A stretch of DNA of 64,000 bases from an uncultured Bacilli bacterium (GTDB lineage Bacteria; Bacillota_I; Bacilli_A; RF39; UBA660), in contig CAKOOR010000002.1 in assembly GCA_934098505.1 (NCBI GenBank), positions 83,279 through 147,278 of the forward strand, given 5' to 3'. The notes beneath the pieces were generated by a model. That model searched no databases. It saw only the letters and a list, made by a program, of their open reading frames with translations, and was not told the DNA's origin. The translations under genes and the position numbers were made by a program. Within the stretch, counting starts at the first letter, position 1. Each line of letters opens with the position of its first letter. Positions 12,614-42,932 of the stretch are shown piece after piece.

Positions 12614-12650
12614 TATTATAGCAAAAAAACTGCAATTATGCAGTTTTTGT
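12614..12650 (-). terminator. rho-independent terminator of rpmE
   Basis: The hairpin ctgcaattatgcag is flanked by A7/T5 runs and overlaps the rpmE stop. Confidence 0.6.
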
Positions 12651-12879
12651 TTCGTCGTGATTAAAGCCGTATTTACGGTTGAATTTTTCTACTGAGCCAG
12701 TCTTCTTAGCACGAGCTTGTGAACCTGTATAGAATGGGTGGCAAGCACTACAAACATCACATTGGATACTGTCTTTAGTAGATTTTACTGTAAATGTATT
12801 TCCGCAAGCACAATGTACTTCTACTTCGTGCATTTCTGGATGAATTCCCTTTTTCATGATACTCTCCTTCCGCCATGTT
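12636..12879 (-). CDS. rpmE: 50S ribosomal protein L31 (Zn-binding type A)
   Basis: [19 protein letters not shown]...[13 protein letters not shown]. The RBS GGAGG precedes ATG 12879. The ORF-track start 12887 is an upstream extension. Confidence 0.85.
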
Positions 12880-13065
12880 ATATTCATAACATAGAAATTT
12901 GTTTGTCCTATGTATTATATCATAAGATTTTAGTTTTGCAATTATTAATAAGTTTATTTTTCCTGATTTTCAATAATTTTTTAATATTTAAATTAAATGA
13001 GCATTTACTATTTTCCATAAACTTAATGGTTATTAAAACATTTTATATTCTAAATAGCAAAAGTT

Positions 13066-13590
13066 TTATTTGATTTTTATTTTAAGATTGGCTAAGATTT
13101 TTCCAACTAAAAATGATATTTTATCACTATTTTTAGTAGCTATTGATTTACAGATAGCCTTACCACCTACGGTAAAACTAGAAATGAAAGCTGTAAGTAA
13201 AACGGATATAATGCTTAAATTAATATTGGTTGAGTTACTAACTGATATTGCTAAGACAGCGCCAATAGAACCACTGATAATTCCACAAATATCGCCAATA
13301 ACATCATTACATATACTAGAAATTTTACTAGAATTTTTAAGTAAGCCGATAGTTTCTTTACCACCTTTTATTTTTTGAGAAGCAATTGACAAGAAAGTCT
13401 TTTCTTTACTCGTTAAAACTGCTACACCTATCATATCGAAGATAATGCCTATTACAATTATTAAAATTAATATTATAAATAAAAAGATACTATTCAATGA
13501 GTTTGATATAATATTAGAGATAATACTAAATAAGCATGATAGGATAAAAGTTAATAAAAAAACTTTATATATCCAGGCTTTATTATTCAT
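13066..13590 (-). CDS. hypothetical integral membrane protein
   Basis: The AGGAGG RBS precedes MNNKAWIYK. Four or more hydrophobic helices. Confidence 0.5.
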   Translation of the reverse strand: MNNKAWIYKVFLLTFILSCLFSIISNIISNSLNSIFLFIILILIIVIGIIFDMIGVAVLTSKEKTFLSIASQKIKGGKETIGLLKNSSKISSICNDVIGDICGIISGSIGAVLAISVSNSTNINLSIISVLLTAFISSFTVGGKAICKSIATKNSDKISFLVGKILANLKIKIK

Positions 13591-13640
13591 AATTCCTCCT
13601 ATATAAAGTAATATTCTAATTTTTGTATGGTATATCAAAA

Positions 13641-14079
13641 GTTAATTTTACGGCTTGAGGTCGAGTTGAGTTTCTCTAAATATCTTCCACTTGATTACTC
13701 ATTGGCACTTTCGTCTTTAGGATATTTAATTAATATTTAATTCATTAATTACTCGATTGCCACTTAGTCCGCACTTCAATACTCTTAATATAGACAGTCT
13801 AGAGGTTTTCCCTGACATAAGTAACTATACTTATTCGCTTTTGCAAGCATTATTTCAACTTATAGTATTCCTAATACTCACGCACGACATACGTAACTTT
13901 GAAATGACGTAATGAAAGGATGTGGGTTATATGCCATTATAACTTTCCTTAGATTTTAAATCTTATATTCACCCTAACTTGGGCCGATAAAGCAAATATA
14001 AGAAGTGTCGGTAATGTAATTGATGGATTTTTAGCCCCATCTTCATATAGTGTTATGACTAGAATAATGCACCACACAT
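13641..14079 (-). ncRNA. candidate structured leader/ncRNA (~430 nt, ORF-free, GC-richer than surroundings) transcribed from consensus promoter
   Basis: No ORF on either strand. Local GC is elevated. It contains GGGUGAAU and GAUGGGGC segments faintly reminiscent of a c-di-AMP (ydaO) riboswitch. Identity unresolved. Confidence 0.3.
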
Positions 14080-14086
14080 AGCCGAG

Positions 14087-14115
14087 ATTATAACACAAGA
14101 TATTTCGTTTGTCAA
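14087..14115 (-). promoter_or_regulatory. consensus sigma-A promoter (TTGACA-17-TGtTATAAT) reading leftward
   Basis: Minus strand: TTGACA (14115-14110), a 17-bp spacer, then the extended -10 TGTTATAAT (14095-14087). All three elements are perfect matches. Confidence 0.7.
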
Positions 14116-14212
14116 ATTTTGTTTTCTTAGAGTGTAAACAAGAGCGATTTTGACACTTTTTTTGAATTTTATTATAATCTTCTTTTAATTATATGTCTTT
14201 TTAATAAAAATA

Positions 14213-14689
14213 TTATTTGTCAATTAATTTACTTACTAAATTTAACATTTTACTATTATTGTGAACAAATTTATTTGGTTTAAATTTTTTTACCTTTGTT
14301 AAAGCTTCAGCTAATCCTTCAACATCTTGTAAACCAATTATGTATCCTAGTGAATTAAACTTAGCAATGATTTGGGTTTGATGATCATTGATATGCTCTC
14401 CATACTTAGCAAGTCTGGGGATTGCTATTACTTTTTTATTTTTTTCCAGAGCAGAGATAATGTTACCAACACCACCATGGGTAATAATCAAGTCGGCCTT
14501 GTCCATTAAGAAATTAAATTCATCTTGAGGTATTAAATCAAATATTTCCATATTTTGTGAACTATACTTAGTAAAACCAGCTTGAACTATTACTTTATCT
14601 TTTATTAAACCTTGTTTTATTAATTGGTCAATCTTTTCTAGAAGACGGACAAAGGTTTTATCTTGAGTTCCTAAAGTTACTAAAATCAT
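14213..14689 (-). CDS. glycosyltransferase family 28 C-terminal domain protein (Alg13-like, EpsF/Cps14G-type)
   Basis: MILVTLGTQ...ITHGGVGNIISAL. AAGGA RBS. Start trimmed to M13. Confidence 0.65.
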   Translation of the reverse strand: MILVTLGTQDKTFVRLLEKIDQLIKQGLIKDKVIVQAGFTKYSSQNMEIFDLIPQDEFNFLMDKADLIITHGGVGNIISALEKNKKVIAIPRLAKYGEHINDHQTQIIAKFNSLGYIIGLQDVEGLAEALTKVKKFKPNKFVHNNSKMLNLVSKLIDK

Positions 14690-14705
14690 AAGAAATCCTT
14701 TCTTT

Positions 14706-15194
14706 TTAATAAATCCACCCACCATAAATGGCGTTGGGATAAACTTCTAACATGCTTTCCCATTGAACAATAAAATAGTCGGCAAATTTATATATCAACC
14801 GCCCAGCACGAGTAGGGGTAGTACTGTTGGCAATAGTTTCGATAAAAATAACTTTTTTACGGAATAATTTAGCTAAGCAACACATAGGTCCAACATTATG
14901 GGAACCTGTTGTTACAACAACATCCGGTCTTATTTTAATAATTAAATGTAGCGAAATAAAACAATTTAAAAGGAGTTTAAAAGGGTAAACCAACTTAGCT
15001 TTAAAATTAGTATAAGTACCGCTAATTATATAATGAATTCGATTAGGATATTTATTAGCTAGATCAAGGTTATTTTTAGTTTTTTCGGTAACAATTGTAT
15101 AATCATATTTTTTGAATAAGGGGGCAAGCTGCATTAGTTCACTTAAATGACCACCAGTACTAGCAATAAACATTACTTTTTTCTTTGTTTTCAC
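14706..15194 (-). CDS. Alg14-like oligosaccharide biosynthesis membrane protein (EpsE/Cps14F-type partner of Alg13-like GT)
   Basis: The MFIASTGGHLSELMQL motif. Adjacent to the Alg13-like gene. Confidence 0.6.
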   Translation of the reverse strand: MKTKKKVMFIASTGGHLSELMQLAPLFKKYDYTIVTEKTKNNLDLANKYPNRIHYIISGTYTNFKAKLVYPFKLLLNCFISLHLIIKIRPDVVVTTGSHNVGPMCCLAKLFRKKVIFIETIANSTTPTRAGRLIYKFADYFIVQWESMLEVYPNAIYGGWIY

Positions 15195-17391: not shown

Positions 17392-17883
17392 TTAATTATA
17401 TTTTAAAAGAACTTCCTTAATATACGACTTGTATTCAATATTTGATTTATCATTATTTTCATCAATTAAACATAAAGGTGGATACATTACGCACCAAAAG
17501 TTTTCACCAAGACCGTGACCTAAAGTTATTACTAAAGAATTATAATAACCGGCAGGATATTTAATGCCTTTATAGGTTTTAGAAGGAAAAAAGTTATTAC
17601 CATAAGAAATATTATAGGGAACTTGATAATGATTTAAAATAGTACGAAAAGTAGACATATTATTTTTTATATAACTATCAATGTCAGTATTTTTATTAAT
17701 ATACGGCAAAATTTGTTTCATTAAGTCTTCTTTAATCCTCGTCTTAGTTAATTGATCTTGCAAATTATTAGAATTAGCTATTATACGAAAACGAATAGAG
17801 TCATCGGGAATTATTATTTCTTCTTTATTACTATTTAAGTAGAATAAAGCAATAATGGTTAAAACAACTATAATCTTTTTTAT
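17392..17883 (-). CDS. spoIIR: stage II sporulation protein R, apparent ATA (non-ATG) start or start-codon lesion
   Basis: IPDDSIRFRIIANSN and YPAGYYNSLVITLGHGLGENFWCVMYPPLCL match B. subtilis SpoIIR. The signal peptide (I)KKIIVVLTIIALFYL is encoded only if translation begins at ATA 17883. There is no in-frame ATG/GTG/TTG before the stop at 17892. Confidence 0.6.
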   Translation of the reverse strand: MKKIIVVLTIIALFYLNSNKEEIIIPDDSIRFRIIANSNNLQDQLTKTRIKEDLMKQILPYINKNTDIDSYIKNNMSTFRTILNHYQVPYNISYGNNFFPSKTYKGIKYPAGYYNSLVITLGHGLGENFWCVMYPPLCLIDENNDKSNIEYKSYIKEVLLKYN

Positions 17884-30921: not shown

Positions 30922-31866
30922 TTATCTTGCTTCCTTTATTTTCTTCATAACAAAATTTTGAACGATACCAAAGACATTATTAACAATCCAGTAAAGGGCT
31001 AAGGCTGTTGGTAGTGAAAGTGATGCCATTAAAATCATAAACATCATGATATAAGTCATAGTCTTAGTTTGGCGCATCATATCAGAATTGCCGTCTTGAG
31101 GTTGGCTAGCCATGGCTTGTTTAAATGAGAAGAATGTACTTAACGCAATAATAACAAGTAAAATTAGATAAATGTAATTACCACTAGCAAGGGCTTTACT
31201 TGGAGTCATTCCTAAATTCATATTCCATAGTGTACCTTCGAAAATAGCAGGAACTCTATTGATTGCTTCTAAAAAGGCAAATAACAAAGGTAATTGAATT
31301 AATGATGTTAGGCAACTACTAGCCGGATTGATGTTATATTTACGATAGATTAGCATCATTTCTTGTGATTTTTGCATCATTGCTTCATTATCAGTACGGT
31401 TAGCATATTTTTGTTCTAACTTATTTAATTCTTTACTAGCTTTTTTCATGTTTTCTGATTGAGCCATGGTATTTTTAGTTAGAGGAATTAAAATAATACG
31501 AATTAATAAACTGATAATAATTACTGATAAACCATAATTGTTAACAAATTCTCCTAATTTTAGGATTAACCATGCAAGAGGTTTAACAAAAATACTTTCC
31601 CATAAACTTTGATACTTGATATCTGTCGGTTTAAAATTTTCACATGAAGGTAAATCTTCTAACTTAGTTGTTAATTTATCATCATATTTATTATAAACAG
31701 CAAGTAAATCGTCGGTAGTAGGCTTACATAAAATGTTGGAAGTTAATGTTTGACCGGTGGTTTCATTAATAACTTGTCTTTTGTCATCGTCTTTAACATA
31801 TTTTGTACAACCTACTGTGAGGAAAACCATAAGGGTTAGTATTCCAACTTTAATTTTTTTGTTCAT
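30922..31866 (-). CDS. yidC: membrane protein insertase YidC/SpoIIIJ (lipoprotein)
   Basis: The lipobox LTVGC and the 60-kDa inner-membrane-protein core. Confidence 0.85.
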   Translation of the reverse strand: MNKKIKVGILTLMVFLTVGCTKYVKDDDKRQVINETTGQTLTSNILCKPTTDDLLAVYNKYDDKLTTKLEDLPSCENFKPTDIKYQSLWESIFVKPLAWLILKLGEFVNNYGLSVIIISLLIRIILIPLTKNTMAQSENMKKASKELNKLEQKYANRTDNEAMMQKSQEMMLIYRKYNINPASSCLTSLIQLPLLFAFLEAINRVPAIFEGTLWNMNLGMTPSKALASGNYIYLILLVIIALSTFFSFKQAMASQPQDGNSDMMRQTKTMTYIMMFMILMASLSLPTALALYWIVNNVFGIVQNFVMKKIKEAR

Positions 31867-32189
31867 TTAATCTCCTTTATTAAACTTGTAAAATTAGATT
31901 CCAGTTCTTGAAAGGAAACATTTTTACAAGTGTTCTTTATCATTATAATATATTTAGCTGAATTTTTGAATTCTTTTTTATAGTTATCCACAAGGAAACG
32001 TACTTGTCTTTTTATTTTGTTTCTTTCCACAGCAGTACCATAACTTTTTTTTACGGCAATACCAAACTGTGGATAACTTTGGGGATAACTTTTTAGATAG
32101 ATTGTAAATAATTTATTAGTAACAAATTTTTTGTTGTGAATAATTTCTTGAAAATCATTGTTGGCTTTAACCATTTCTATTCTTTTCAT
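31863..32189 (-). CDS. rnpA: ribonuclease P protein component
   Basis: FGIAVKKSYGTAVERNKIKRQVR. Confidence 0.85.
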   Translation of the reverse strand: MKRIEMVKANNDFQEIIHNKKFVTNKLFTIYLKSYPQSYPQFGIAVKKSYGTAVERNKIKRQVRFLVDNYKKEFKNSAKYIIMIKNTCKNVSFQELESNFTSLIKEIK

Positions 32190-32225
32190 ACTAACTCCTT
32201 AAGGAAAAAACCACTAGGTAGTGGT

Positions 32226-32348
32226 TTACTTACATAATACTTTACGTCCTTTTTTTCTTCTTGATTTAAGAATATTGCTTTCTTTTCTAGCAAAGAAACC
32301 ATGTTTTTTAGCTTTTTTGCGTTGATTTGGTTGATAAGTTCTTTTCAT
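32226..32348 (-). CDS. rpmH: 50S ribosomal protein L34
   Basis: [40 protein letters not shown]. Missed by the ORF track because it is short. A TTGACA-18-TATAAT promoter lies at 32409-32380 on the minus strand. Confidence 0.85.
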
Positions 32349-32417
32349 TTTGACACCTCCACATCTAATTAGCAAAGTTATTATAATAAAATTTTTAGGA
32401 TATTGTCAAGGTTTTAA

Positions 32418-32450
32418 TGATTATTATTACTTCCCAACCCACCCACCCTT
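32418..32450 (-). repeat. G-rich dispersed repeat copy B, abutting rpmH -35
   Basis: The minus strand reads AAGGGTGGGTGGGTTGGGAAGTAATAATAATCA. It ends 8 bp upstream of the rpmH TTGACA. Confidence 0.7.
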
Positions 32451-32520
32451 AAAGGGATGTTTTTAAAGAATAGTTTATGATTTTAGTTTTATGTTTTAGA
32501 AATTTTATATTTTGATAAAT

Positions 32521-33056
32521 TGTGGATAAGTGTGGATAACTTTTCTTTTATTATTATTATTATATATATATTCATCATCATAATACTGTGGATATGTGGA
32601 TAACTTTTAAAAAAATCCCGAAAGTACGCCAATAAAATGACCGTTTTGAGGTGTTGATAACTTTTGAGTTATCAACAGTTGGGGTGTGGATAACTGTGTT
32701 TTGAGGTGTTGATAACTCCAAAAATAGTCAAAAATCGACCAAAATTTACCTAAAAAAAGTGTCAAGTTTTAGTGTCAAGTAAGAAGTTATCCACAGTTTT
32801 GCCTAAAAATAGTGCATTTATGGGAAGTTATCCACAGGCGTGAGCCCTTATAAACACTGGGCTCAAATGAGTTATCCACATTATCAACAGGTACTACCAC
32901 CCAAGTTATCCACATGTTGATAACAAAAAAAGCCCTAAACTGTGGATAACTCAAAAATTTCCCAGACTTCTGGGAAAAAAACTGTGGATAAACTGTTGAT
33001 AAGTTGTTGATAACCTGTGGACAAAACTGTGGATAACTTTACTAGGGGTGTTGATA
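32521..33056. other. oriC: cluster of >=20 DnaA boxes (TTATCCACA/TTATCAACA) with AT-rich (TTA)n/(TA)n tract
   Basis: Perfect or one-mismatch boxes, in both orientations, at 32521, 32531, 32587, 32595, 32652, 32669, 32686, 32707, 32787, 32828, 32872, 32881, 32906, 32915, 32941, 32973, 32984, 32995, 33007, 33018 and 33048. An AT tract lies at 32546-32582. Confidence 0.9.
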
Positions 33057-33134
33057 ACTTTAAATCGGTAAAAAAGTACGAAAGTTCTTTACTAAAGTTT
33101 TAGGATGTTATAAAATAGGTGTTGATTATTGGTT

Positions 33135-34508
33135 ATGAGTGGGGTGATAATTTTGAAATCCGAGGAATTATGGGATAAATTTCTTTCTGTAATGCAAGAA
33201 AAAATGAATCCTATTTCCTTTAATACATGGTTTAAACCGTTAAAATTGCAAGAACTTAATACTAAAGATAACAAAATTATCATTCAAGTACCTATGGGTG
33301 TGCATAAAACGACTTTGGAAACCAGTTGGCATCAAGTAATTGAAGAAACTTTACAAGAGTTAACTGGTAATACTTTTGAACTATTGTATGTTTTAGAAGA
33401 TTTACAAACTGCTAAAGATAAACCTTTAGATAAGGTAAAAGCTAAAAAAAATAATGATGAAGTATTTGTAACGAACTTAAAGAAAGAGTTTACATTTGAT
33501 AATTTTGTAACTGGAGATACAAATAAATTTGCGAAGACAGCTGCGATAGCGGTGGCGGAGGCTCCGGGAAAAATATATAATCCTTTATTTATGTATGGTA
33601 AAAGTGGGGTAGGTAAGACTCATTTAATGCATGCGATAGGTAATTACATAACTGAACATTCGGACTTGAAGGTTTTATACACAACAAGTGATAGTTTTAA
33701 GGATGATTATACTAATATTGCTGGAGGGACGAATGATAATTCTTTTGAAAGAGCTGAATATTTCAAAAATAAGTATCGTGATGTTGATGTTTTGCTTATT
33801 GATGATATTCAGTTTTTAGTTGGAGCTGAAAAGACCCAACAAGGTTTTTTTCATACATTTAATGAATTACATGATAAAAATAAACAAATAATAATTACAT
33901 CAGATCGTTCACCAGAGGATTTAAAGCTTTTGGAGGAACGTTTAAGAAGTCGTTTTACATGGGGTCTTCCGGTTGATATTTATCCACCTGATTATGAACT
34001 TCGATGTCGGATAATTAGGGATAAGATAAGATACTTGAATTTATCCACAATGATGAATGATGATGTTATTAACTATATTGCTAATTCGTGTGATACCGAT
34101 GTAAGGGAAATAGAAGGAGCGATTAATAGATTACAAGCCTATACAGCTGTCTATGCGCCACCTAATATTACTTTAGAATTTGCAATGGAAGCCTTAGGTG
34201 ACTATGTAAATAACAATATATATTCAATTAGTAATATAACTGTTGTACAAAAAGCCGTTGCAGATTATTATGGGATAACAGTTGAAGCCTTAAAAGGAAA
34301 GAAGAAATCAAAGAATATAGCTTATCCAAGAATGCTTGGAATGTATATGGCTCGTATTATGACAAATGAGTCATTCCCAAGAATAGGTTTAGAGTTTGGT
34401 GGTCGTGATCATTCTACCGTTATTCATGCTTGCGATAAAATAGAAGAAGATTTAAAGGATAATAAACAATTACAAGAGATTATTAATGAAATAAAAACAA
34501 AAATTTAA
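33135..34508 (+). CDS. dnaA: chromosomal replication initiator protein DnaA
   Basis: The AAA+ Walker A GKSGVGKTHL and the C-terminal DnaA signature. The start is ambiguous: TTG 33129, ATG 33135, or TTG 33153 with a GGGGTG RBS. Confidence 0.9.
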   Translation: MSGVIILKSEELWDKFLSVMQEKMNPISFNTWFKPLKLQELNTKDNKIIIQVPMGVHKTTLETSWHQVIEETLQELTGNTFELLYVLEDLQTAKDKPLDKVKAKKNNDEVFVTNLKKEFTFDNFVTGDTNKFAKTAAIAVAEAPGKIYNPLFMYGKSGVGKTHLMHAIGNYITEHSDLKVLYTTSDSFKDDYTNIAGGTNDNSFERAEYFKNKYRDVDVLLIDDIQFLVGAEKTQQGFFHTFNELHDKNKQIIITSDRSPEDLKLLEERLRSRFTWGLPVDIYPPDYELRCRIIRDKIRYLNLSTMMNDDVINYIANSCDTDVREIEGAINRLQAYTAVYAPPNITLEFAMEALGDYVNNNIYSISNITVVQKAVADYYGITVEALKGKKKSKNIAYPRMLGMYMARIMTNESFPRIGLEFGGRDHSTVIHACDKIEEDLKDNKQLQEIINEIKTKI

Positions 34509-34534
34509 TATTTATAAAGAAAGAGAGAAAGTAT

Positions 34535-35653
34535 ATGAAATTTACAATTGATAAAAATATAATTTTAGAAAATTTAATGAATGTTGCTAGAGCAATATCT
34601 ACTAAAAATGTTATTCCTGTTTTAAATGGAATTAAATTTGAAATGACTGAGGAAGGTCTTTATTTAACAGCCAGTGATAGTGAACTTACAATTAAATCAT
34701 TTATTGAAAAGAAAGATATTAAAAATGTTGAGGCTTTAGGAAATATTATTATTCAAAGTAAATTTATTGTTGATATTATTAGAAAAATGCCTAGTGATAT
34801 TATTGATTTTGAAGTAGTAGATGGGTTAAAAATCAAACTAACTAGTGGTTCTAGTGAATGTAGTTTGAATTGTTTAGATTCAAGTGAGTATCCACAAATC
34901 GATTTAGAAGAACATAAGACTCCTATCTATATTAATAGTATGTTATTTAAAAGCATTGTTAGTCAAACGGCTTTTGCTATTTCAACTCAGGAATTAAGAC
35001 CACTTCTTACTGGTTTGAATTTTAAAATTACTGGTGATATTTTAGAATGTATTGCAACGGATTCATACCGTTTAGCTAAAAAGACAGTTACTTTAACAGG
35101 TGCTAGTGATAATGATGTTAATATGGTAATACCAGGAAAAAATGTTTTAGAACTTGATAAAATTATTAATGACGATGTTGATATGGAATTACATGTATTC
35201 AGTAATAAAGTGTTATTTAAATATAAAAATATTATTTTCCAAAGTAATTTACTTGCAGGTAATTATCCTAATACTAATAACTTAATTCCTACTAATTTTG
35301 AATACATGATGAGTACAAACTTAAATGATTTTTATAATGCTATTGATCGTGCTTCTTTAGTAACTCAAAGTAAAGATAAAAACATTGTTAAGATGACATT
35401 GTCTGGTAAAAAGCTAATTATTAATTCTTATGCTAGTGAAATTGGTAAGGTAGAAGAAACAATTGATGTTGAATGCAATGTTGAAAATGACATTTCTATT
35501 TCCTTTAGTGCTAAATATATGTTAGAGGCTTTAAAGACTTTTAAGGATGAAAAGATTATGATTTTATTAAATGGGGATATTAAACCTATTGTTGTTAAAT
35601 CAACAGAAGATGAAACTTTAATTCAATTAATTTTACCTATTAAGACTTATTAG
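34535..35653 (+). CDS. dnaN: DNA polymerase III beta sliding clamp
   Basis: Three-domain clamp, 372 aa, directly after dnaA. Confidence 0.9.
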   Translation: MKFTIDKNIILENLMNVARAISTKNVIPVLNGIKFEMTEEGLYLTASDSELTIKSFIEKKDIKNVEALGNIIIQSKFIVDIIRKMPSDIIDFEVVDGLKIKLTSGSSECSLNCLDSSEYPQIDLEEHKTPIYINSMLFKSIVSQTAFAISTQELRPLLTGLNFKITGDILECIATDSYRLAKKTVTLTGASDNDVNMVIPGKNVLELDKIINDDVDMELHVFSNKVLFKYKNIIFQSNLLAGNYPNTNNLIPTNFEYMMSTNLNDFYNAIDRASLVTQSKDKNIVKMTLSGKKLIINSYASEIGKVEETIDVECNVENDISISFSAKYMLEALKTFKDEKIMILLNGDIKPIVVKSTEDETLIQLILPIKTY

Positions 35654-35958
35654 GATATAGATGCAATTTATTTAGAAAATAAGCTAGAAAATATTAAATT
35701 TAGAAGGTTATTGAAAAAAATTTAAGTAGTAGAAATATGAAATATAAGATGGCTATGGAATTATTTTAAATTTTCCATTACATAATAATGAATAGAGGGC
35801 TGAAGAAATTTGGCTCTTTTTGATTTTAGAAAAACTATAAAAAGTTAGCTAAAAATGCAGTTTGGAAATAAAAATCAAGCTAAATTTAGTTCTATAAATA
35901 TAACTAATTTCAGGTAATAGTTATGAATTTTAGTTAAAAATTTACCTTTTTTTACCAA

Positions 35959-35988
35959 TTCGACAAAATTTGACAAAATTCGACAAAG
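35959..35988 (+). promoter_or_regulatory. three tandem 10-bp direct repeats AATT(C/T)GACAA upstream of comK-like gene, followed by extended -10 TGcTATACT
   Basis: ttcgacaaaa / tttgacaaaa / ttcgacaaag at 10-bp phase. TGCTATACT lies at 35994-36002. Confidence 0.5.
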
Positions 35989-36036
35989 GGACTTGCTATA
36001 CTATGGTACAATTCATTAAAAAAAGGGGGAAATTTT

Positions 36037-36501
36037 ATGGAAGAATTATATTCAATTAATGAAGATACATTATTTTTAGAAGGAGTTGTAGATGATAGGG
36101 GTAAAGTTTTAACTAAAATTTATGAACAAGATAAAGTGTTGAAACTTTATGATACACCAACAAACATTATAAGATACGGTTGTGAATACTTTGGCTCGAC
36201 TTTAGAAGGGCGTCAAAAAGGGTCGATGAGTTTATTGGGAATTAAACATAAAGTTCCGGTAATGGTTGAAGGAAGTATGGAATTAATATTCTTTCCAATG
36301 TGTTCACCAAGAATAAGAGATTGTTCGTGGGTATGTTTTAATAATATTGTAAGCTATAAAAGAAGTGGATATGATACAGAGGTATTATTTAAAAATGGTC
36401 AAAAAATAACTTTAAATATTTCTTATGGAATATTTGAAAATCAATATATGCGTGCTACTAAATTAAAAATGGTTAATACCCTAAGAAAATTGGCAAAATA
36501 A
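36037..36501 (+). CDS. comK: competence transcription factor ComK-like
   Basis: CEYFGSTLEGRQKGS...HKVPVMV, IFFPMCSPRIRDCSWV and ISYGIFENQYMRAT align with B. subtilis ComK. Confidence 0.7.
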   Translation: MEELYSINEDTLFLEGVVDDRGKVLTKIYEQDKVLKLYDTPTNIIRYGCEYFGSTLEGRQKGSMSLLGIKHKVPVMVEGSMELIFFPMCSPRIRDCSWVCFNNIVSYKRSGYDTEVLFKNGQKITLNISYGIFENQYMRATKLKMVNTLRKLAK

Positions 36502-36606
36502 AGAAAATTGGCTGTAAAATAAGCAAAATTTATGATATAATTTAAGTAGGTATATGGGTACTAATATACCTATTATTTTACTATAAGTTAGAAAGAGGCA
36601 CTTTAA

Positions 36607-37701
36607 ATGCGAATAGTCAATCTAAAGTTACTTAATTTTAGAAACTATAATCATTTAACCTTATCGTTTTCGCCAAGTATTAATGTTATATATGGTAAAA
36701 ATGGTAGTGGTAAGACTAATTTAATTGAAGCAATATATGTCTTAGGTTTAACAAAGTCTTTCCGATCTACTACGGATAAAGTATTAGTAACGAAAGATAA
36801 AAACTTAACAAAAATATCGGGGGTAGTTTTTGATAACATAAATAAAGAATATCAACTTACTATTTCTGGTGATGGCAAGGTTGCAAAAATAGATAGTCAT
36901 CGGCAAAATAAGTTAAGTGATTATATAGCTAAGGTAAATATTGTATTATTTCATCCCGATAGCTTAAAAGTAATTAAGGATTCACCTGGTGTAAGAAGAG
37001 ATAATCTCAATATTGATATGTCGCAGTTTGATAATGAATTTGTTAATTTACTTAATGATTATGAAAAAGTATTGAAGCAGAGAAATGCTTATCTTAAAGT
37101 AATGTATGCTAATGCGAATAAATCGCAAGTCTATTTAGATATATTAACAGATAAATTAGTAGATTATGGTTTAAAGATTTATGAAAAAAGAGCTAATTTT
37201 ATTGAACAAATTAATAAATATATAGGTAATTTCTATAGTAAAATAAGTGGTGTTGGTACTTTAAAAATTAAATACCAGTCAGAATTAAAGGATAAAAATC
37301 AGGAAAAGTTAAAGAAAATGTATAATGGTCTTAAAAATAAGGATATGCTTCTTGGTAATACAACTTTAGGTGTTCATAAAGATGATTATGCATTTTGTTT
37401 TGAAAGTGAATCTTTAAAAGATTATGCTTCGCAAGGCCAACAAAAAAATGCCATTATTGCTTATAAACTTTCTTTAATAGAATTGTTTAAAAATGAGCGA
37501 AATATTAAACCTATTTTGATATTAGATGATTTGTTTAGCGAGTTAGATAATGAAAAAATTAATAATATTTTAGAAGTAATTGATAAAGATTTACAAATAT
37601 TTATTACTGTTACTGATTTAAATAAATTACCAAATGATATAAAAAATAAAAATAATAAAATTTTTGATTGTGCTTTTGGTAAAATAAGGGAGGATATATG
37701 A
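36607..37701 (+). CDS. recF: DNA replication and repair protein RecF
   Basis: [14 protein letters not shown] and [14 protein letters not shown]. Confidence 0.9.
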
Positions 37702-39626
37702 GAGAATTAGGACATGAAGATTATAATGATAATGATATTCAAGTTTTAGAAGGATTAGAAGCTGTTCGCAAACGACCTGGTATGTATATCGGTACAACTG
37801 GTGAGGCTGGACTTCATCATTTAGTTTGGGAAATTGTTGATAATGCTGTCGATGAGGCTTTAGCTGGATATTGTGATGATATCGAAGTAATCGTTGAAAA
37901 AGGCAACATAATTACGGTTCGCGATGACGGTCGTGGAATTCCAACTGGTATGAATAAAAAAACAGGTTTATCCACAGTTGAAACTATTTTTACAGTATTA
38001 CATGCAGGTGGTAAATTTGGCGGTGGTGGATATAAAGTATCTGGTGGTTTGCACGGAGTAGGTGCTTCCGTTGTTAATGCTTTATCCACATGGCTTGAAG
38101 TTACTATTTATCGTGATGGACATATTTATTATCAAAAGTTTGAAAACGGCGGTCATTCAGTAGAACCTTTAAAAATTATAGGTGAATGTGATGCTAACCG
38201 TACAGGTTCAACGGTAAGATTTAAAGCAGATCCAGAAATATTTAGAGAAACGACTGTTTATAGTTATGCTATTTTGGCAAAGCGATTACAGGAAATTGCT
38301 TTCTTAAATAAGGGTTTAAGAATTATTCTTATGGATGATAGAGAAGATAATAAAAAAGATGAATTCTTATATCAAGGTGGAATTATTGAGTTTGTTAAAA
38401 TGTTAAATAAAAATAAAACACCTATACATGATGATGTAATTTATGTTGAAGGAAGAGAAGACAACATTTTAATTGAAGTAGCTATGCAATATAATGATGG
38501 TTATAATGAGGCTTTATATTCTTATACCAATAATATTCATACCCATGAAGGTGGAACTCATGAAGATGGTGTTAAGAGAGCTTTAACGAGAATTATTAAT
38601 AATTATGCTCGCAACAATAAAATGTTAAGTGAAAAGGCTGATCCTTTGACTGGTGATGATGTTCGTGAAGGTTTAACAATGATAATTTCTTGTAAACATC
38701 CAGATCCTCAGTTTGAAGGTCAGACTAAGACTAAACTAGGTAATATGGAAGTTCGTAAGATTGCTGATGATGTATTTAGTAATGGTTTTGAAAGATATTT
38801 AATGGAAAATCCGGAGATAGCTAAGAAGATTGTTGAAAAATCATTAACAGCATCTCGTGCAAGAATGGCTGCTAAGAAAGCTAGAGAATTACAAAGACAA
38901 ACCAAAGGTGGTTTAGATTTATCTAACCAATGGGGAAAATTAACTGATTGTACGAGTAAAAATCCTAGTGAATGTGAAATATTTATTGTTGAGGGAGATT
39001 CAGCCGGTGGTTCTGCTATCGGTGGTAGAAATTCTAAGACGCAAGCTGTTTTACCTTTAAGAGGAAAGATTTTAAATGTAGAAAAGGCAAGATTAGATAG
39101 AGCTCTTTCTAATGAAGAAATTAGAAGTATGATTACTGCTTTTGGTACTGGTATTGGTGAAGATTTTGATATTTCTAAATTAAGATATGATAAAATCATT
39201 ATTATGACTGATGCCGATGTCGATGGTGACCATATTAGAATTTTACTTTTGACTTTATTTTATCGTTTCTTTAGACCTTTGGTTGAAACTGGACATATTT
39301 ATATAGCTCAACCTCCTTTATATAAAGTATCGTGGGGTAAAAATTTCCATTATGTTCTAACTGATGCTGAACGCGATGAGTTTTTAAAGACTTTACCTGC
39401 AAATGTTAAATTTGATGTTGCTCGTAATAAGGGACTTGGTGAAATGGATCCCGAAGAACTATGTTCAACAACAATGGATATTAACAATAGAACACTAATT
39501 CAAGTTAAATTAGATGAAGCGATGGAAGCTGATGGTATTTTCAGTCTATTAATGGGTGAAGAAGTAGAACCAAGAAGAAAGTTTATTGAAGAAAATGCTC
39601 ATTTTGCTTCAAATTTAGATTATTAG
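37698..39626 (+). CDS. gyrB: DNA gyrase subunit B
   Basis: The GHKL ATPase, Toprim EGDSAGG, and [12 protein letters not shown]. Confidence 0.95.
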
Positions 39627-39636
39627 GAGGTATATC

Positions 39637-42111
39637 ATGGATAATAGAGAATCAAAAAATGTAGTTAATGTAATGAAAGATTCCTTCATTAACTATGCAA
39701 TGGATGTAATTATTGCTCGTGCATTACCAGATTTGAGAGATGGTTTAAAACCAGTACATCGTCGTATTTTATACACAATGTATGAAGATGGTTTAACTCC
39801 TGATAAAGCATTCCGCAAGAGTGCTACAACAGTAGGAGCCGTTTTAGGTAAATACCATCCACATGGTGATACATCAGTTTATGATGCGATGGTAAGAATG
39901 GCTCAAGACTTTAGTTATCGTCATCCATTAGTTGATGGTCATGGTAACTTTGGTTCAGTTGATGGATATGGTGCTGCTGCTTATCGTTATACAGAGGCTA
40001 GGTTATCAAAAATTTCTTTAGAATTATTAAGAGATATCAACAAGAATACAGTAGACTTCGTTCCTAACTTTGATCAAACTAAGAAAGAACCCGTAGTAAT
40101 TCCTAGTAGATTTCCAAACATTTTAGTAAATGGTACCATGGGTATTGCTGTCGGTATGGCAACAAATATTCCTCCTCATAATTTAGGAGAAGTAATTGAT
40201 GGCTGTGTTGCTTATATTGATGATAATAATATTACTGTTGAAGGGTTGATGAAGCATATCAAAGGTCCGGATTTTCCAACAGGGGCAGCTATTTTAGGTA
40301 ACAGAGGTATTAAACAAGCTTATGAAACTGGCCGTGGGACAATTACTATTAGAGCTCATGCAGAAATCGTAGAGCACAATGGTAAACAACAGATCGTATT
40401 TACAGATATTCCTTACCAAGTAACTAAGATGGAACTTCAGAAGAGAATTGCAGAATTAGTAAGAGATAAGGTACTTGAAGGAATTACTGATTTACATGAT
40501 GAATCAACATTAACAGAAATTAAGTTGGTAGTACATTTAAAGAAAGAAGCTAATGCTAATGTAGTATTGAATAATTTATATAAACATACCTCTTTACAAA
40601 CTACTTATGGTATTATATTCTTGATGTTAGATCAAGGTTTACCAAAGACTTTAAATTTAAAAGAAATTATTAGTAAATATATTGATTATCAAAGAGAAGT
40701 TATTTATAGAAGAACTAAATATGACTTGGAAAAAGCCGAAAAGCGTGTTCATATTTTAGAAGGATATAAGATAGCTTTAGATAATTTAGATGCAGTTATT
40801 AACATAATTAGAAATGCTAAAGATGATGATACTGCTAAACATGAATTAATGACTAGATTTAATTTGGATGATGTTCAAGCTGAATCTATATTAGAATTAA
40901 AGTTAAGAAGATTAACTGGCTTAGAACGCAGCAAGATTGAAGAAGAATTGAATGATCTATTAAAATTAATTGATGAATTAAAAGGCATTTTAGCCAGTGA
41001 TGCGAAGATTTATGACATTATTAAACAAGAATTACTTGAAATTAAAGCTAAATATGCTGATGAACGTCGTACAGAGATTGATATGACTGCTATTGATTAT
41101 ATTGATGATGAAGCATTAATTCCTGAAGAGAATATAGTTGTAGCATTAACTAATAAAGGCTATATTAAGAGAACTACTAGTGATACATTTAAGTCACAAA
41201 ATCGTGGAGGTGTTGGTGTTAAGGGTATGACTACGAATGAAGAAGACTTTGTAGAGCATTTAGTAGATTTATCAACACACGATTATCTATTGTTCTTTAC
41301 TAATAAGGGTAAAGTTTATCGATTAAAAGGTTATGAAATTCCACAATTCGGTCGTCAATCAAAAGGTTTGCCAATAATCAACTTATTGCAAATAGATAAA
41401 GATGAACGAATAAGCAGCGTTATTAAAATTTCTGCGAATGATGATAAAAAATACTTGCTATTTGTAACAAAAAGTGGTATAATTAAGAAGACGATTTTAA
41501 CCCAATTTGAAAATATACGTCAAAACGGAAAAATTGCTATTACGTTGAAGGAAAATGATGAATTAATAGCTGTTAAAAAGACTAGTGGCGAAGATATGGT
41601 ATTAATTGGTTCAAGTGAAGGGCGTATGGTTAAGTTTACCGAAGACGAGATCAGAGATATGGGACGTACTGCTAGCGGTGTTAAAGGTATTGATTTAGAA
41701 AATGACGCAATAGTAGTTGGTGCTGAAGTGGTAAATAATGATGATAATATTTTACTAATAACTGAAAATGGCTATGGTAAACAAACGAAGGTTGCAGACT
41801 TTAGACAAACAAGAAGGGGATCCAAAGGAGTTAAAGCGTTAAATATAACTGATAAGAATGGTAAAATAGCAGACTTTAAGGTTATAGGCGATGCTAATGA
41901 TGTAATAATAGTAACTAATTCTGGTATGATAATGAGAATGCCAATTAGTCAGATAAGTGTATTAGGTAGAATTACTCAAGGTGTTAGATTGATAAATTTG
42001 AAAGATGGTCAAAAAGTATCAACAATAACTTTGATTAAATCCGACGAACAATCAGAAGAAGATGGAACAACTGCTGGAATTAATGAAGAGGCAACACCAG
42101 AAAATGAGTAA
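39637..42111 (+). CDS. gyrA: DNA gyrase subunit A
   Basis: The active-site region AAMRYTE (here AAYRYTE) and the GyrA-box C-terminal beta-pinwheel repeats. Confidence 0.95.
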
Positions 42112-42122
42112 TGAAATTTATA

Positions 42123-42722
42123 TGTTTCACGTGAAACGTATAAACAAGTAATAAGTAAAATATAAAAACAATGTTTCACGTGAAACATTGTTTTTTTTGC
42201 ATAATTTTTTAATGTTTCACGTGAAACATTGACTGTTGATAAAATTTTATGGTTATTTGTTTTAAATAAAAGTTATTTTCAATGATATTTAGAATTAATT
42301 TTTTTAAATACTATTTAAAATTTATATGTTTCACGTGAAACATATAAAAAATGTTGATATTTATTATTTAAATAATAATAGGATAATAAAACTTTACAAC
42401 ATTATTTATATTAAAAAACTAATGTTTCACGTGAAACATTGTTATTAACAAGCATATTTGTATGATTAACGTTAAGCTGATTCAATGGCTTATTAAATAA
42501 TTAATAATCTTGCAATAAATATTTAATGCTTTTTGTTTAAAGTATTTTATACATTAAATTAATTTGGCAGCTAAAATTTATTTATATAAATAAATTATTT
42601 TTTGATTTAAGAAATAAATTTTAATTTAATCATTATTTTAATGTTTCACGTGAAACATTAAAATTTTGTTCATAATAAATAATTGCTAATTAATTATTTT
42701 TTATGATGTTTCACGTGAAACA
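42123..42722. repeat. array of seven parS centromere palindromes (TGTTTCACGTGAAACA)
   Basis: Six perfect 16-bp parS copies at 42172, 42213, 42327, 42423, 42642 and 42707, and a 15/16 copy at 42123. The flanks extend each palindrome to 18-26 bp. Confidence 0.85.
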
Positions 42723-42840
42723 TCATAAAAAAGTTATAAACAGTTTTGCTTGATAAAATATTTTTTATATTGAAGTAGTTATTTATAAAGGAAGGTTAAA
42801 ATTTTTGTTGTATCTTTGGAATTTTTATGGTAATATTAAG

Positions 42841-42919
42841 AGGTGCAATAAGTACATAGGAACTTGGTCAGGGTAGGAATACAGCAGCCATAACTATCAA
42901 TGCTTATGTGCACTTTTTT
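42841..42919 (+). ncRNA. ffs: small SRP RNA (4.5S/ffs)
   Basis: UUGGUCAGGGUAGGAAUACAGCAGCC contains the domain-IV GGUCAGG ... AGCAGCC motifs around a GUA[GGAA]UAC tetraloop stem. The 5'/3' ends pair (gtgcaataag/cttatgtgcac). A T7 terminator and an extended -10 TGgTAATAT lie at 42828-42836. Confidence 0.65.
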
Positions 42920-42932
42920 TATGGAGTTTAAT

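What the first reader, a model, noticed from the sequence alone, without database searches (positions are those of the whole stretch)
13640..14116. Perfect consensus sigma-A promoter driving a ~430-nt ORF-free, GC-enriched leader upstream of a membrane protein gene
TTGACA, a 17-bp spacer and the extended -10 TGTTATAAT are all exact matches, which is rare in this genome. The transcript runs about 430 nt before the AGGAGG RBS of the 13066-13590 membrane protein. It contains no ORF on either strand. It is markedly less AT-rich than typical intergenic DNA here. It contains GGGUGAAU- and GAUGGGGC-type segments. I could not match it to RNase P, tmRNA, SRP, T-box or common riboswitch consensus sequences.
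Basis: seen in the sequence. Interest (0 to 1): 0.55.

Follow-up and report, generated by a model that had tools for sequence, protein, structure and literature searches.

The report
Shortened OLE RNA with its oapA gene
The "ORF-free leader" is a copy of OLE RNA, a known large structured bacterial RNA that binds the membrane protein encoded just downstream (OapA); this copy is the shortened form already described in reduced-genome gut bacteria, so the finding is real but ordinary.

Summary
A perfect TTGACA-17-TGnTATAAT promoter lies at 14115..14087 on the minus strand. It is followed by about 470 nt of non-coding sequence (32% GC against 24% for other spacers) that ends 20 nt before a membrane-protein gene.

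The interpretation as an unknown leader does not hold. Rfam RF01071 (OLE, ornate large extremophilic RNA) matches 14091..13611 end to end at 201.9 bits (gathering score 50, E 3e-55). The downstream 174-aa protein is OapA, OLE's obligate membrane partner. All 55 related oapA loci scanned carry OLE upstream.

Across 35 relatives the OLE fold is kept: 89% of cells pair against about 40% in slid controls, and 69 of 106 pairs show compensatory changes.

The copy is short (481 nt against about 600). It lacks P7, P8 and the distal P9 arch. In this lineage it also lacks the P13 GNRA loop that OapB binds.

Loss of P7 and P8 is the published "variant 2" of the RF39 gut clade (Fernando and Breaker 2024), a clade also reported to lack OapB and OapC.

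Verdict: already known, low interest. The residual value is as a natural near-minimal OLE-OapA particle.

The parts
14087..14115 (-). Sigma-70/sigma-A type promoter of ole: -35 TTGACA (14115-14110), 17-nt spacer, extended -10 TGT-TATAAT (14095-14087). The transcription start is inferred at about 14079-14083.
   Evidence: 12/12 match, 2 in the window against 0.08 expected. A near-consensus promoter sits at the same distance from GUGGUGCA in most relatives, and is 12/12 in L001 and L002. The start site is inferred from spacing only.
13611..14091 (-). OLE RNA gene (Rfam RF01071), a reduced 481-nt form. The first ~10 model positions overlap the -10 box, so the RNA proper probably starts near 14080.
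   Evidence: 201.9 bits, gathering score 50, E 3e-55, model 1-616 complete; covariation in 35 sequences.
14059..14066 (-). P3 5' strand (UAUUCUAG). It pairs with 13795-13802 (CUAGACUG). This long-range helix encloses P4-P9 and is the helix proposed in the literature to cross the membrane.
   Evidence: 8 pairs, 99% paired, and the central pair has 5 pair types. Naming follows PMC12265935.
14046..14051 (-). P3.1 5' strand (ACUAUA). It pairs with 13824-13829 (UAUAGU).
   Evidence: all 6 pairs show changes on both sides, 95% paired.
14022..14041 (-). P4 hairpin with the A-rich loop GCUAAAAA, which is the A-A dimer contact in the cryo-EM structures.
   Evidence: helix 1, 100% paired. The loop is invariant in 35 sequences. 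Its role is taken from PMC12286853 and PMC12265935.
13960..14005 (-). P5/P5.1 long hairpin with loop GCCCA, the kissing partner of L6.1.
   Evidence: (helix 2, 12 pairs with compensatory change).
13911..13955 (-). P6/P6.1 hairpin with loop AAUGGCAU.
   Evidence: (helices 3 and 4).
13889..13910 (-). 22-nt linker between P6 and P9. Full-length OLE RNAs carry the P7 and P8 hairpins here. Within the linker, 80 model positions are replaced by 15 nt.
   Evidence: (local ends 44+36 reduced to 8+7) compared with the full-length L016.
13834..13888 (-). P9 basal part only. The distal ~46-position extension with the palindromic UUGGCCAA kissing loop (the 'P9 arch') is replaced by 3 nt.
   Evidence: helices 5-7.
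13631..13792 (-). 3' domain ('domain 2'): nested helices P10-P12.2 enclosing P13 (13729-13749, here an all-A/U segment without a GNRA loop or bulge) and P14/P14.1 (13677-13728, with the invariant GUAA tetraloop at 13695-13698).
   Evidence: (helices 9-14). Naming follows PMC7936274.
13066..13590 (-). oapA: a 174-aa membrane protein with about 4 hydrophobic segments and the conserved basic motif KIKGGKE. The RBS AGGAGG is at 13600-13595. No terminator separates ole and oapA.
   Evidence: weak CNNM PF01595 hit, 19.3 bits against a 28.4-bit cutoff; 4667 homologs; invariant K73 G76 K78 E79; hydropathy; OLE upstream in 55 of 55 loci; no minus-strand terminator.

Best explanation
The region is the gene for OLE RNA, a large structured non-coding RNA of Bacillota. 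It is transcribed from its own strong promoter, most likely on one transcript with oapA, which starts 20 nt after the RNA model ends. By analogy with the studied species, the RNA folds into the conserved OLE architecture and dimerises through its P4 and P5.1/P6.1 loops. It is then held at the cell membrane by the four-helix membrane protein OapA, a distant relative of CNNM/MpfA-type Mg2+ transporters. The resulting ribonucleoprotein helps the cell cope with stresses such as alcohols, cold, excess Mg2+ and poor carbon sources. This copy is the reduced form typical of RF39-type gut Bacilli. It lacks P7, P8 and the P9 arch, and in this lineage it also lacks the P13 GNRA loop, which is the primary OapB-binding site. 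Shown here: family membership, conserved fold, conserved promoter, synteny with oapA, and which helices are missing. Inferred from work on other species: dimerisation, membrane localisation, OapA binding and the stress-response role.
For: - Rfam RF01071 matches the full model at 201.9 bits (gathering score 50), and no other family reaches E<=1 in the region.
- Covariation across 35 sequences: 89.3% of cells pair against 39-43% in slid controls, 69 of 106 pairs have changes on both sides, and 0 of 500 shuffles reach any measure.
- The P3/P3.1 long-range helices, which Rfam's structure line does not annotate, were recovered from covariation alone at 97.6% paired.
- OLE lies upstream of the OapA homolog in all 55 loci scanned, usually within about 10-130 nt (larger in L008 and L045). 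This includes 15 Clostridia loci with full-length OLE at 358-509 bits.
- OLE is 96.9% identical to L001 while the flanking DNA is about 86% identical, and one of the 15 differences is a compensatory U-A to C-G change.
- A consensus promoter is conserved across the clade.
- The dimer-contact loops L4, L5.1 and L6.1 are invariant or nearly so.
- Literature: oapA is the commonest immediate downstream neighbour of ole, OapA binds and localises OLE, RF39 'variant 2' lacks P7 and P8, and RF39 lacks OapB and OapC (PMC12265935, PMC11332333).
Against: - There are no expression, processing or localisation data for this organism.
- The score is the lowest among the complete copies scanned, apart from L036.
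- Ten of 120 predicted pairs are not standard pairs in the window copy, and P13 has no stable fold.
- The P9 kissing loop, one of four dimer contact centres in the cryo-EM models, is absent, so dimerisation is assumed and not shown.
- Assignment of the organism to RF39 is indirect. It rests on relatives such as Candidatus Coprovivens (PMC8035907). The nearest genomes are only about 86% identical in DNA.
Confidence: 0.96

Rival explanations
1. It is a cis-acting regulatory leader (riboswitch or attenuator) that controls expression of the downstream membrane-protein gene.
For: The RNA lies between the promoter and the oapA RBS with no terminator or second promoter in between, so it is physically the 5' part of the oapA transcript. 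In several relatives a U-run follows the last OLE helix (L027, L031, L040, L045, L071, L079), which could attenuate read-through there.
Against: No riboswitch or leader family scores at E<=1. The window has no terminator or antiterminator alternative, and no U-run after the RNA. The sequence is a full-model OLE match. In the studied species OLE is an abundant RNA that forms a ribonucleoprotein with OapA and other proteins (PMC12265935). In L008 and L045 OLE lies about 2 kb and about 0.4 kb from oapA, so adjacency is not obligatory.
Confidence: 0.03
2. It is a decaying relic of OLE that no longer functions, in a genome undergoing reduction.
For: It has the lowest bit score among the complete copies scanned, apart from L036. 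P7, P8, the P9 arch and the P13 GNRA loop are lost. A relative (L036) has an even more truncated 381-nt copy that appears to lack P5, P6 and most of P9.
Against: OLE is 96.9% identical to L001 against about 86% for the flanks. In the window copy, 110 of 120 pairs are standard. The conserved loops are invariant, and the promoter is a perfect consensus match that is conserved across relatives. oapA is intact and keeps all family-invariant residues.
Confidence: 0.02
3. The region encodes one or more small proteins (30-51 aa ORFs).
For: Mechanical ORFs exist at 13949-14098 (minus strand, 49 aa, TTG start) and 13757-13912 (plus strand, 51 aa).
Against: The 49-aa ORF starts at a TTG upstream of the inferred transcription start, next to the -10 box. 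No AGGAGG-type RBS is seen before the minus-strand ORFs in the sequence. Relatives differ by non-triplet indels (read by eye). Substitutions are compensatory in helices rather than codon-patterned.
Confidence: 0.01

Closest known systems
OLE RNA 'variant 2' of the RF39 clade (Fernando and Breaker 2024, mSphere, PMC11332333)
   Same: - P7 and P8 are entirely absent.
- The host is a low-GC, uncultured gut Bacilli organism of the RF39 type.
- oapA lies immediately downstream.
- The clade is reported to lack OapB and OapC, and no L7Ae/YbxF-type (OapC-like) or KOW-type (OapB-like) domain was found among the 10 small proteins of the window that were scanned.
   Different: This copy also lacks the distal P9 arch and the P13 GNRA tetraloop and bulge. 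The paper lists those features under 'variant 1'. I could not see the paper's figure, so I do not know whether its variant 2 consensus already includes a short P9. The paper's class cut-offs use the authors' own model's bit scores, so class assignment by score could not be reproduced.
Full-length OLE RNA (Rfam RF01071; Halalkalibacterium halodurans, Clostridium acetobutylicum)
   Same: - The overall architecture is the same: P3/P3.1 enclosing P4, P5/5.1, P6/6.1 and P9, followed by the 3' domain P10-P14.1.
- The highly conserved stretches are kept: GUGGUGCA, CUAAAAAU, GCCCA, AAUGGCAU, UGCAAAAGCG, GGAAAAC, GUGCGGACUAAGUGG and GACC..AAGCCGUAAAAUU.
- The gene sits next to oapA.
   Different: It is 481 nt rather than about 580-700 nt. 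It has no P7, no P8, no P9 kissing loop and no small hairpin at model positions 424-435. P13 lacks its GNRA loop. It has its own consensus promoter directly upstream, whereas in H. halodurans ole sits inside a long polycistronic gene cluster (PMC12265935). The neighbours here are polysaccharide glycosyltransferases (pssD/pssE-like) and rpmE.
MpfA/CorB/CNNM Mg2+ transporters (protein relatives of OapA)
   Same: The OapA here gives a weak match to the CNNM transmembrane domain (PF01595, 19.3 bits), and many of its homologs carry that precomputed domain. This agrees with the published OapA-MpfA relationship.
   Different: OapA is only the ~170-aa transmembrane part and has no CBS or CorC domains. 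The score is below Pfam's gathering cut-off of 28.4 bits. No solved structure matches by sequence.

Membership tests
OLE RNA (Rfam RF01071) | Covariance-model score at or above the curated gathering score, over the whole model | tested here: met
   201.9 bits against 50, E 3e-55, model positions 1-616, not truncated.
OLE RNA (Rfam RF01071) | Conserved multi-helix secondary structure supported by covariation | tested here: met
   Of 106 Rfam pairs, 89.3% of cells pair against about 40% in slid controls, and 69 pairs show compensatory change. P3/P3.1 is 97.6% paired. In the window copy itself, 110 of 120 pairs are standard.
OLE RNA (Rfam RF01071) | Blocks of near-invariant nucleotides (about 25% of positions), including the L4 A-rich loop, L5.1 GCCCA and L6.1 AAUGGCAU | tested here: met
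   About 150 invariant columns among 35 sequences include these loops.
OLE RNA (Rfam RF01071) | Gene adjacent to oapA, usually immediately upstream and on the same strand | tested here: met
   oapA starts 20 nt after the model ends. All 55 related oapA loci scanned have OLE upstream.
OLE RNA (Rfam RF01071) | Host in Bacillota, typically anaerobic or extremophilic | tested here: met
   The nearest relatives are gut 'Bacilli bacterium' MAGs, and others are RF39 members such as Candidatus Coprovivens (PMC8035907). An anaerobic lifestyle is inferred from the gut origin.
OLE RNA (Rfam RF01071) | Stable, abundant RNA that localises to the membrane through OapA | not testable with these tools
   This needs RNA-seq or Northern data, fractionation and binding assays.
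OLE 'variant 2' (RF39 type; Fernando and Breaker 2024) | P7 and P8 entirely absent | tested here: met
   Model positions 198-277, which form two hairpins in the full-length L016, are replaced by 15 nt in the window.
OLE 'variant 2' (RF39 type; Fernando and Breaker 2024) | Bit score of 235 to under 310 with the authors' own covariance model | not testable with these tools
   The authors' Stockholm file and model are not available here, and Rfam bit scores are not comparable.
OLE 'variant 2' (RF39 type; Fernando and Breaker 2024) | Host genome lacks OapB and OapC | tested here: inconclusive
   The 10 small proteins of the window that were scanned show no L7Ae/YbxF-type or KOW-type Pfam domain. 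However, 64 kb is a fraction of the genome, and no OapB or OapC query sequence was available.
OapA (OLE-associated protein A) | Small (~170-aa) protein with four predicted transmembrane helices and a conserved basic cluster, encoded next to ole | tested here: met
   The protein is 174 aa. Hydropathy gives hydrophobic runs at about 5-30, 23-63 (these two overlap), 96-119 and 123-143, consistent with about four helices though not cleanly resolved. K73, G76, K78, E79 and K85 are invariant or nearly invariant. It is 40-46% identical to proteins downstream of full-length OLE in Clostridia.
OapA (OLE-associated protein A) | Direct sequence match to the reference OapA of H. halodurans (WP_010898928.1) | not tested
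   The reference sequence was not retrievable with these tools. Membership rests on homology to OLE-linked proteins and on synteny.

The most novel reading that the evidence does not exclude
This lineage may carry close to the smallest natural OLE particle that still works: an RNA of about 470 nt plus OapA. P7, P8 and the P9 arch kissing loop are missing, as is the P13 GNRA tetraloop and bulge that form the primary OapB site. The P4, P5.1/P6.1, P3/P3.1 and P14.1 GUAA elements stay invariant. If so, it would define the essential core of the OLE ribonucleoprotein. It would also imply that the P9 arch and the P13-OapB module are accessories, and that the invariant P14.1 tetraloop has an OapB-independent role. 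The general idea that RF39 OLE particles need fewer partners has already been voiced in the literature. Only the specific combination seen here, and the still smaller L036 form, would add to it.
Probability: 0.3. Interest if true: 0.3.

Novelty: already known. Interest (0 to 1): 0.12.

Why it matters
For the scan, it matters mainly as a resolved case. A striking promoter followed by a long ORF-free, GC-richer stretch turns out to be a catalogued RNA family, found by a default Rfam search.

OLE RNA is itself one of the most puzzling large bacterial RNAs. Its biochemical function is unknown, and it is proposed to span the membrane as a dimer. Naturally minimised copies such as this one are useful for deciding which helices are dispensable and for designing smaller constructs for structural work with OapA. 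That value is incremental, because the RF39 reduced variants are already published.

Tried and rejected
- **Other RNA families:** a permissive Rfam scan (E<=1) of 13300-14400 for riboswitch, leader or sRNA families found nothing but OLE.
- **OapA structure by sequence:** a search of solved structures found no hit at E<=1.
- **OapA in NCBIfam:** no family matched. Pfam gave only a sub-threshold CNNM match.
- **OapB and OapC in the window:** a Pfam scan of 10 small proteins found no L7Ae/YbxF-type or KOW-type domain. This is uninformative for the whole genome.
- **Published hit list:** a search of the paper's supplement for this lineage's accession found no table held as text.
- **Mislabelled helix:** I first took the invariant GUAA hairpin to be P13. 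Reading Yang et al. 2021 showed it is P14.1 and that P13 is the preceding hairpin.
- **Own covariance model:** building one for the whole RNA was not attempted because the alignment (562 columns) exceeds the 400-column limit.
- **Small-ORF and decaying-relic readings:** both were rejected, as set out under the rival explanations.

Full report
**1. Observation**

On the minus strand, the window carries TTGACA at 14115-14110, a 17-nt spacer, and TGT-TATAAT at 14095-14087. A search for TTGACA-N17-TATAAT finds only two perfect sites in the 64-kb window, against 0.08 expected from dinucleotide shuffles. Both lie in the 622-nt spacer 13591-14212.

Downstream of the minus-strand promoter there is no ORF of 60 aa or more. 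Mechanical ORFs of 30-51 aa do exist. The stretch runs to an AGGAGG at 13600-13595 and an ATG at 13590. That ATG opens a 174-aa hydrophobic protein.

The stretch is 32.4% GC, against 24.1% for the other spacers and 28.8% for coding sequence. Two corrections are minor: the 'ORF-free' claim is only loosely true, and the structured RNA extends about 30 nt beyond the stated end.

**2. Identity**

A default Rfam scan of the window gives three hits at gathering level. The strongest is RF01071, OLE (ornate large extremophilic) RNA, at 14091..13611 on the minus strand. It scores 201.9 bits against a gathering score of 50, with E 3e-55, covers model positions 1-616 and is not truncated. A permissive scan of the region (E<=1) finds no other family.

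GAUGGGGC is the 5' strand of the P4 hairpin, and GGGUGAAU is the 3' strand of P5.1.

**3. The downstream protein is OapA**

- The protein has 4667 homologs at E<=0.001.
- It gives a weak match to the CNNM transmembrane domain (19.3 bits, below the 28.4-bit cutoff).
- It has about four hydrophobic segments.
- It keeps an invariant basic motif with K73, G76, K78 and E79.

Eighty related loci were fetched from species-representative genomes. I scanned 55 with Rfam, and all 55 carry OLE upstream of the homolog on the same strand. In most, the gap is 10 to about 130 nt.

Fifteen Clostridia loci (Agathobaculum, Oscillibacter, Faecousia, Anaerosolibacter and others) carry full-length OLE of 600-695 nt at 358-509 bits. 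Their proteins are 40-46% identical to the window's.

The literature defines oapA as the commonest immediate downstream neighbour of ole. It encodes a four-helix membrane protein that binds OLE and brings it to the membrane (PMC12265935).

**4. Structure and selection**

I aligned the window copy with 34 relatives and projected the Rfam consensus structure onto the alignment.

- 89.3% of cells form standard pairs, against 39-43% when partners are slid by 1-3 columns.
- 69 of 106 pairs show changes on both sides.
- No shuffle out of 500 reaches any measure.

Rfam's structure line does not annotate the long-range P3/P3.1 helices described in the literature. A blind scan for covarying helices between the 5' end and the segment after P9 recovered an 8-bp helix and a 6-bp helix in the expected places. 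They are 97.6% paired, and all six P3.1 pairs covary.

The window copy is 96.9% identical to its nearest relative L001, while the flanking DNA is about 86% identical. One of the 15 differences is a compensatory U-A to C-G change. In the window copy, 110 of 120 predicted pairs are standard pairs.

**5. What is missing**

Comparison with a full-length copy on the same model (L016) shows four losses in the window RNA:

- **P7 and P8.** The two hairpins at model positions 198-244 and 252-280 are gone. Eighty model positions are replaced by 15 nt.
- **The distal P9 arch.** The 15-bp extension whose palindromic loop UUGGCCAA forms the arch kissing contact in the cryo-EM dimers is replaced by 3 nt.
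- **A small hairpin** at model positions 424-435.
- **The P13 GNRA tetraloop and bulge.** In the window and L001, P13 is an all-A/U segment with no stable predicted fold.

By minimum-free-energy folding, 24 of the 35 copies have a GNRA loop on P13. By eye, five more contain a G-GNRA-C motif. That tetraloop and bulge form the primary OapB-binding site (PMC7936274). The neighbouring P14.1 GUAA tetraloop is invariant in all 35.

The loops that make the other dimer contacts are retained and invariant or nearly so: the L4 A-rich loop, L5.1 GCCCA and L6.1 AAUGGCAU (PMC12286853; PMC12265935).

**6. Relation to what is published**

Fernando and Breaker (2024, PMC11332333) searched GTDB genomes and described full-length OLE plus two reduced classes. 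Variant 1 is common in the TANB77 clade. It has shorter P7-P9 and often lacks the OapB site on P13. Variant 2 is common in the RF39 clade and lacks P7 and P8 entirely. They also report that RF39 and TANB77 largely lack OapB and OapC.

The window's relatives are uncultured gut 'Bacilli bacterium' MAGs, 'Mycoplasma sp. CAG:472', 'Tenericutes UMGS1021' and Candidatus Coprovivens. GTDB assigns Candidatus Coprovivens to order RF39, family CAG-1000 (PMC8035907). The window is 28% GC.

The window copy is therefore a published kind of OLE. The extra loss of the P9 arch and the P13 loop is a lineage-level detail. I could not place it in the authors' score bins because their model is not available here.

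**7. Promoter and transcript**

A near-consensus TTGACA-17-TGnTATAAT promoter lies at a fixed distance (the -10 box ends 9-13 nt before GUGGUGCA) in most of the relatives. It is 12/12 in L001 and L002.

No terminator-like site lies between the RNA and oapA, and the gap is 20 nt. ole and oapA are therefore most likely one transcript. Whether the RNA is then processed cannot be told from sequence. A separate promoter-like site (12941-12914) and an L31 leader (12864-12894) precede rpmE downstream.

**8. Mechanism and confidence**

Shown here:
- family membership;
- the conserved fold;
- the conserved promoter;
- synteny with oapA;
- the exact set of missing helices.

Inferred from H. halodurans and Clostridium work:
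- RNA dimerisation;
- OapA-dependent membrane localisation;
- a role in tolerance to alcohol, cold, excess Mg2+ and poor carbon sources (PMC12265935).

The rival readings are a cis-regulatory leader, a decaying relic, and small ORFs. Each is contradicted by the evidence above, and together they carry a few percent.

**9. Verdict**

It is an already known RNA family in an already described reduced form. Interest is low. The residual value is as a natural near-minimal OLE-OapA pair for structural and functional dissection.

Noticed in passing
window 14150-14178 (+ strand): A second perfect TTGACA-17-TATAAT promoter lies 35 nt from the OLE promoter and points the other way. These are the only two perfect matches in 64 kb (0.08 expected). 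A transcript from it would run antisense into the pssE/pssD-like glycosyltransferase genes (14213-15194, minus strand). It is not a perfect match in the 86%-identical relatives L001 and L002.
   Followed up: partly
L036:2616-2996: A rabbit-gut Bacilli MAG has an OLE hit of only 381 nt at 134 bits. Aligned to the clade, it keeps P3, P4 and the whole 3' domain but appears to lack P5/5.1, P6/6.1 and most of P9. It is either a far more reduced OLE or a decaying copy, and it still sits directly upstream of an intact oapA.
   Followed up: partly
L028:2439-2973 and L050:2453-2971: Two relatives keep a long P9 arm whose loop is the palindrome UUGAUCAA instead of the usual UUGGCCAA. This is the pattern expected if a self-complementary kissing loop is maintained by covariation.
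   Followed up: no
window 12864-12894 (-) and 12636-12887 (-): An L31-Firmicutes ribosomal-protein leader (RF03156, 36 bits against 33.3) precedes rpmE immediately downstream of oapA. The ole-oapA-rpmE order recurs in several relatives (L001-L003, L027, L028, L031, L050).
   Followed up: partly
window 31863-42111: This looks like the chromosomal origin region: rnpA (31863-32189, minus strand; Pfam), then a 939-nt spacer (32190-33128), then + strand ORFs whose sizes and order suggest dnaA, dnaN, gyrB and gyrA (not tested against any protein library). Gene orientation switches from minus to plus at the spacer. OLE lies about 19 kb to the left of it.
   Followed up: no
window 17392-17763 (-) and 36037-36501 (+): A SpoIIR-like protein (Pfam 82.6 bits) and a ComK protein (138.9 bits) are encoded in what is presumed to be a reduced RF39-type genome. 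[quoted passage not shown]
   Followed up: no
window 42112-42929 (+): A bacterial small SRP RNA lies at 42834-42929 (60 bits). It is preceded by a ~720-nt very AT-rich stretch (the whole 42112-42899 spacer is 19.5% GC) with no ORF of 70 aa or more.
   Followed up: no
L008 and L045: In two relatives OLE is not adjacent to oapA, with gaps of about 2.0 kb and about 0.4 kb. Tight linkage is therefore usual but not obligatory in this clade.
   Followed up: no
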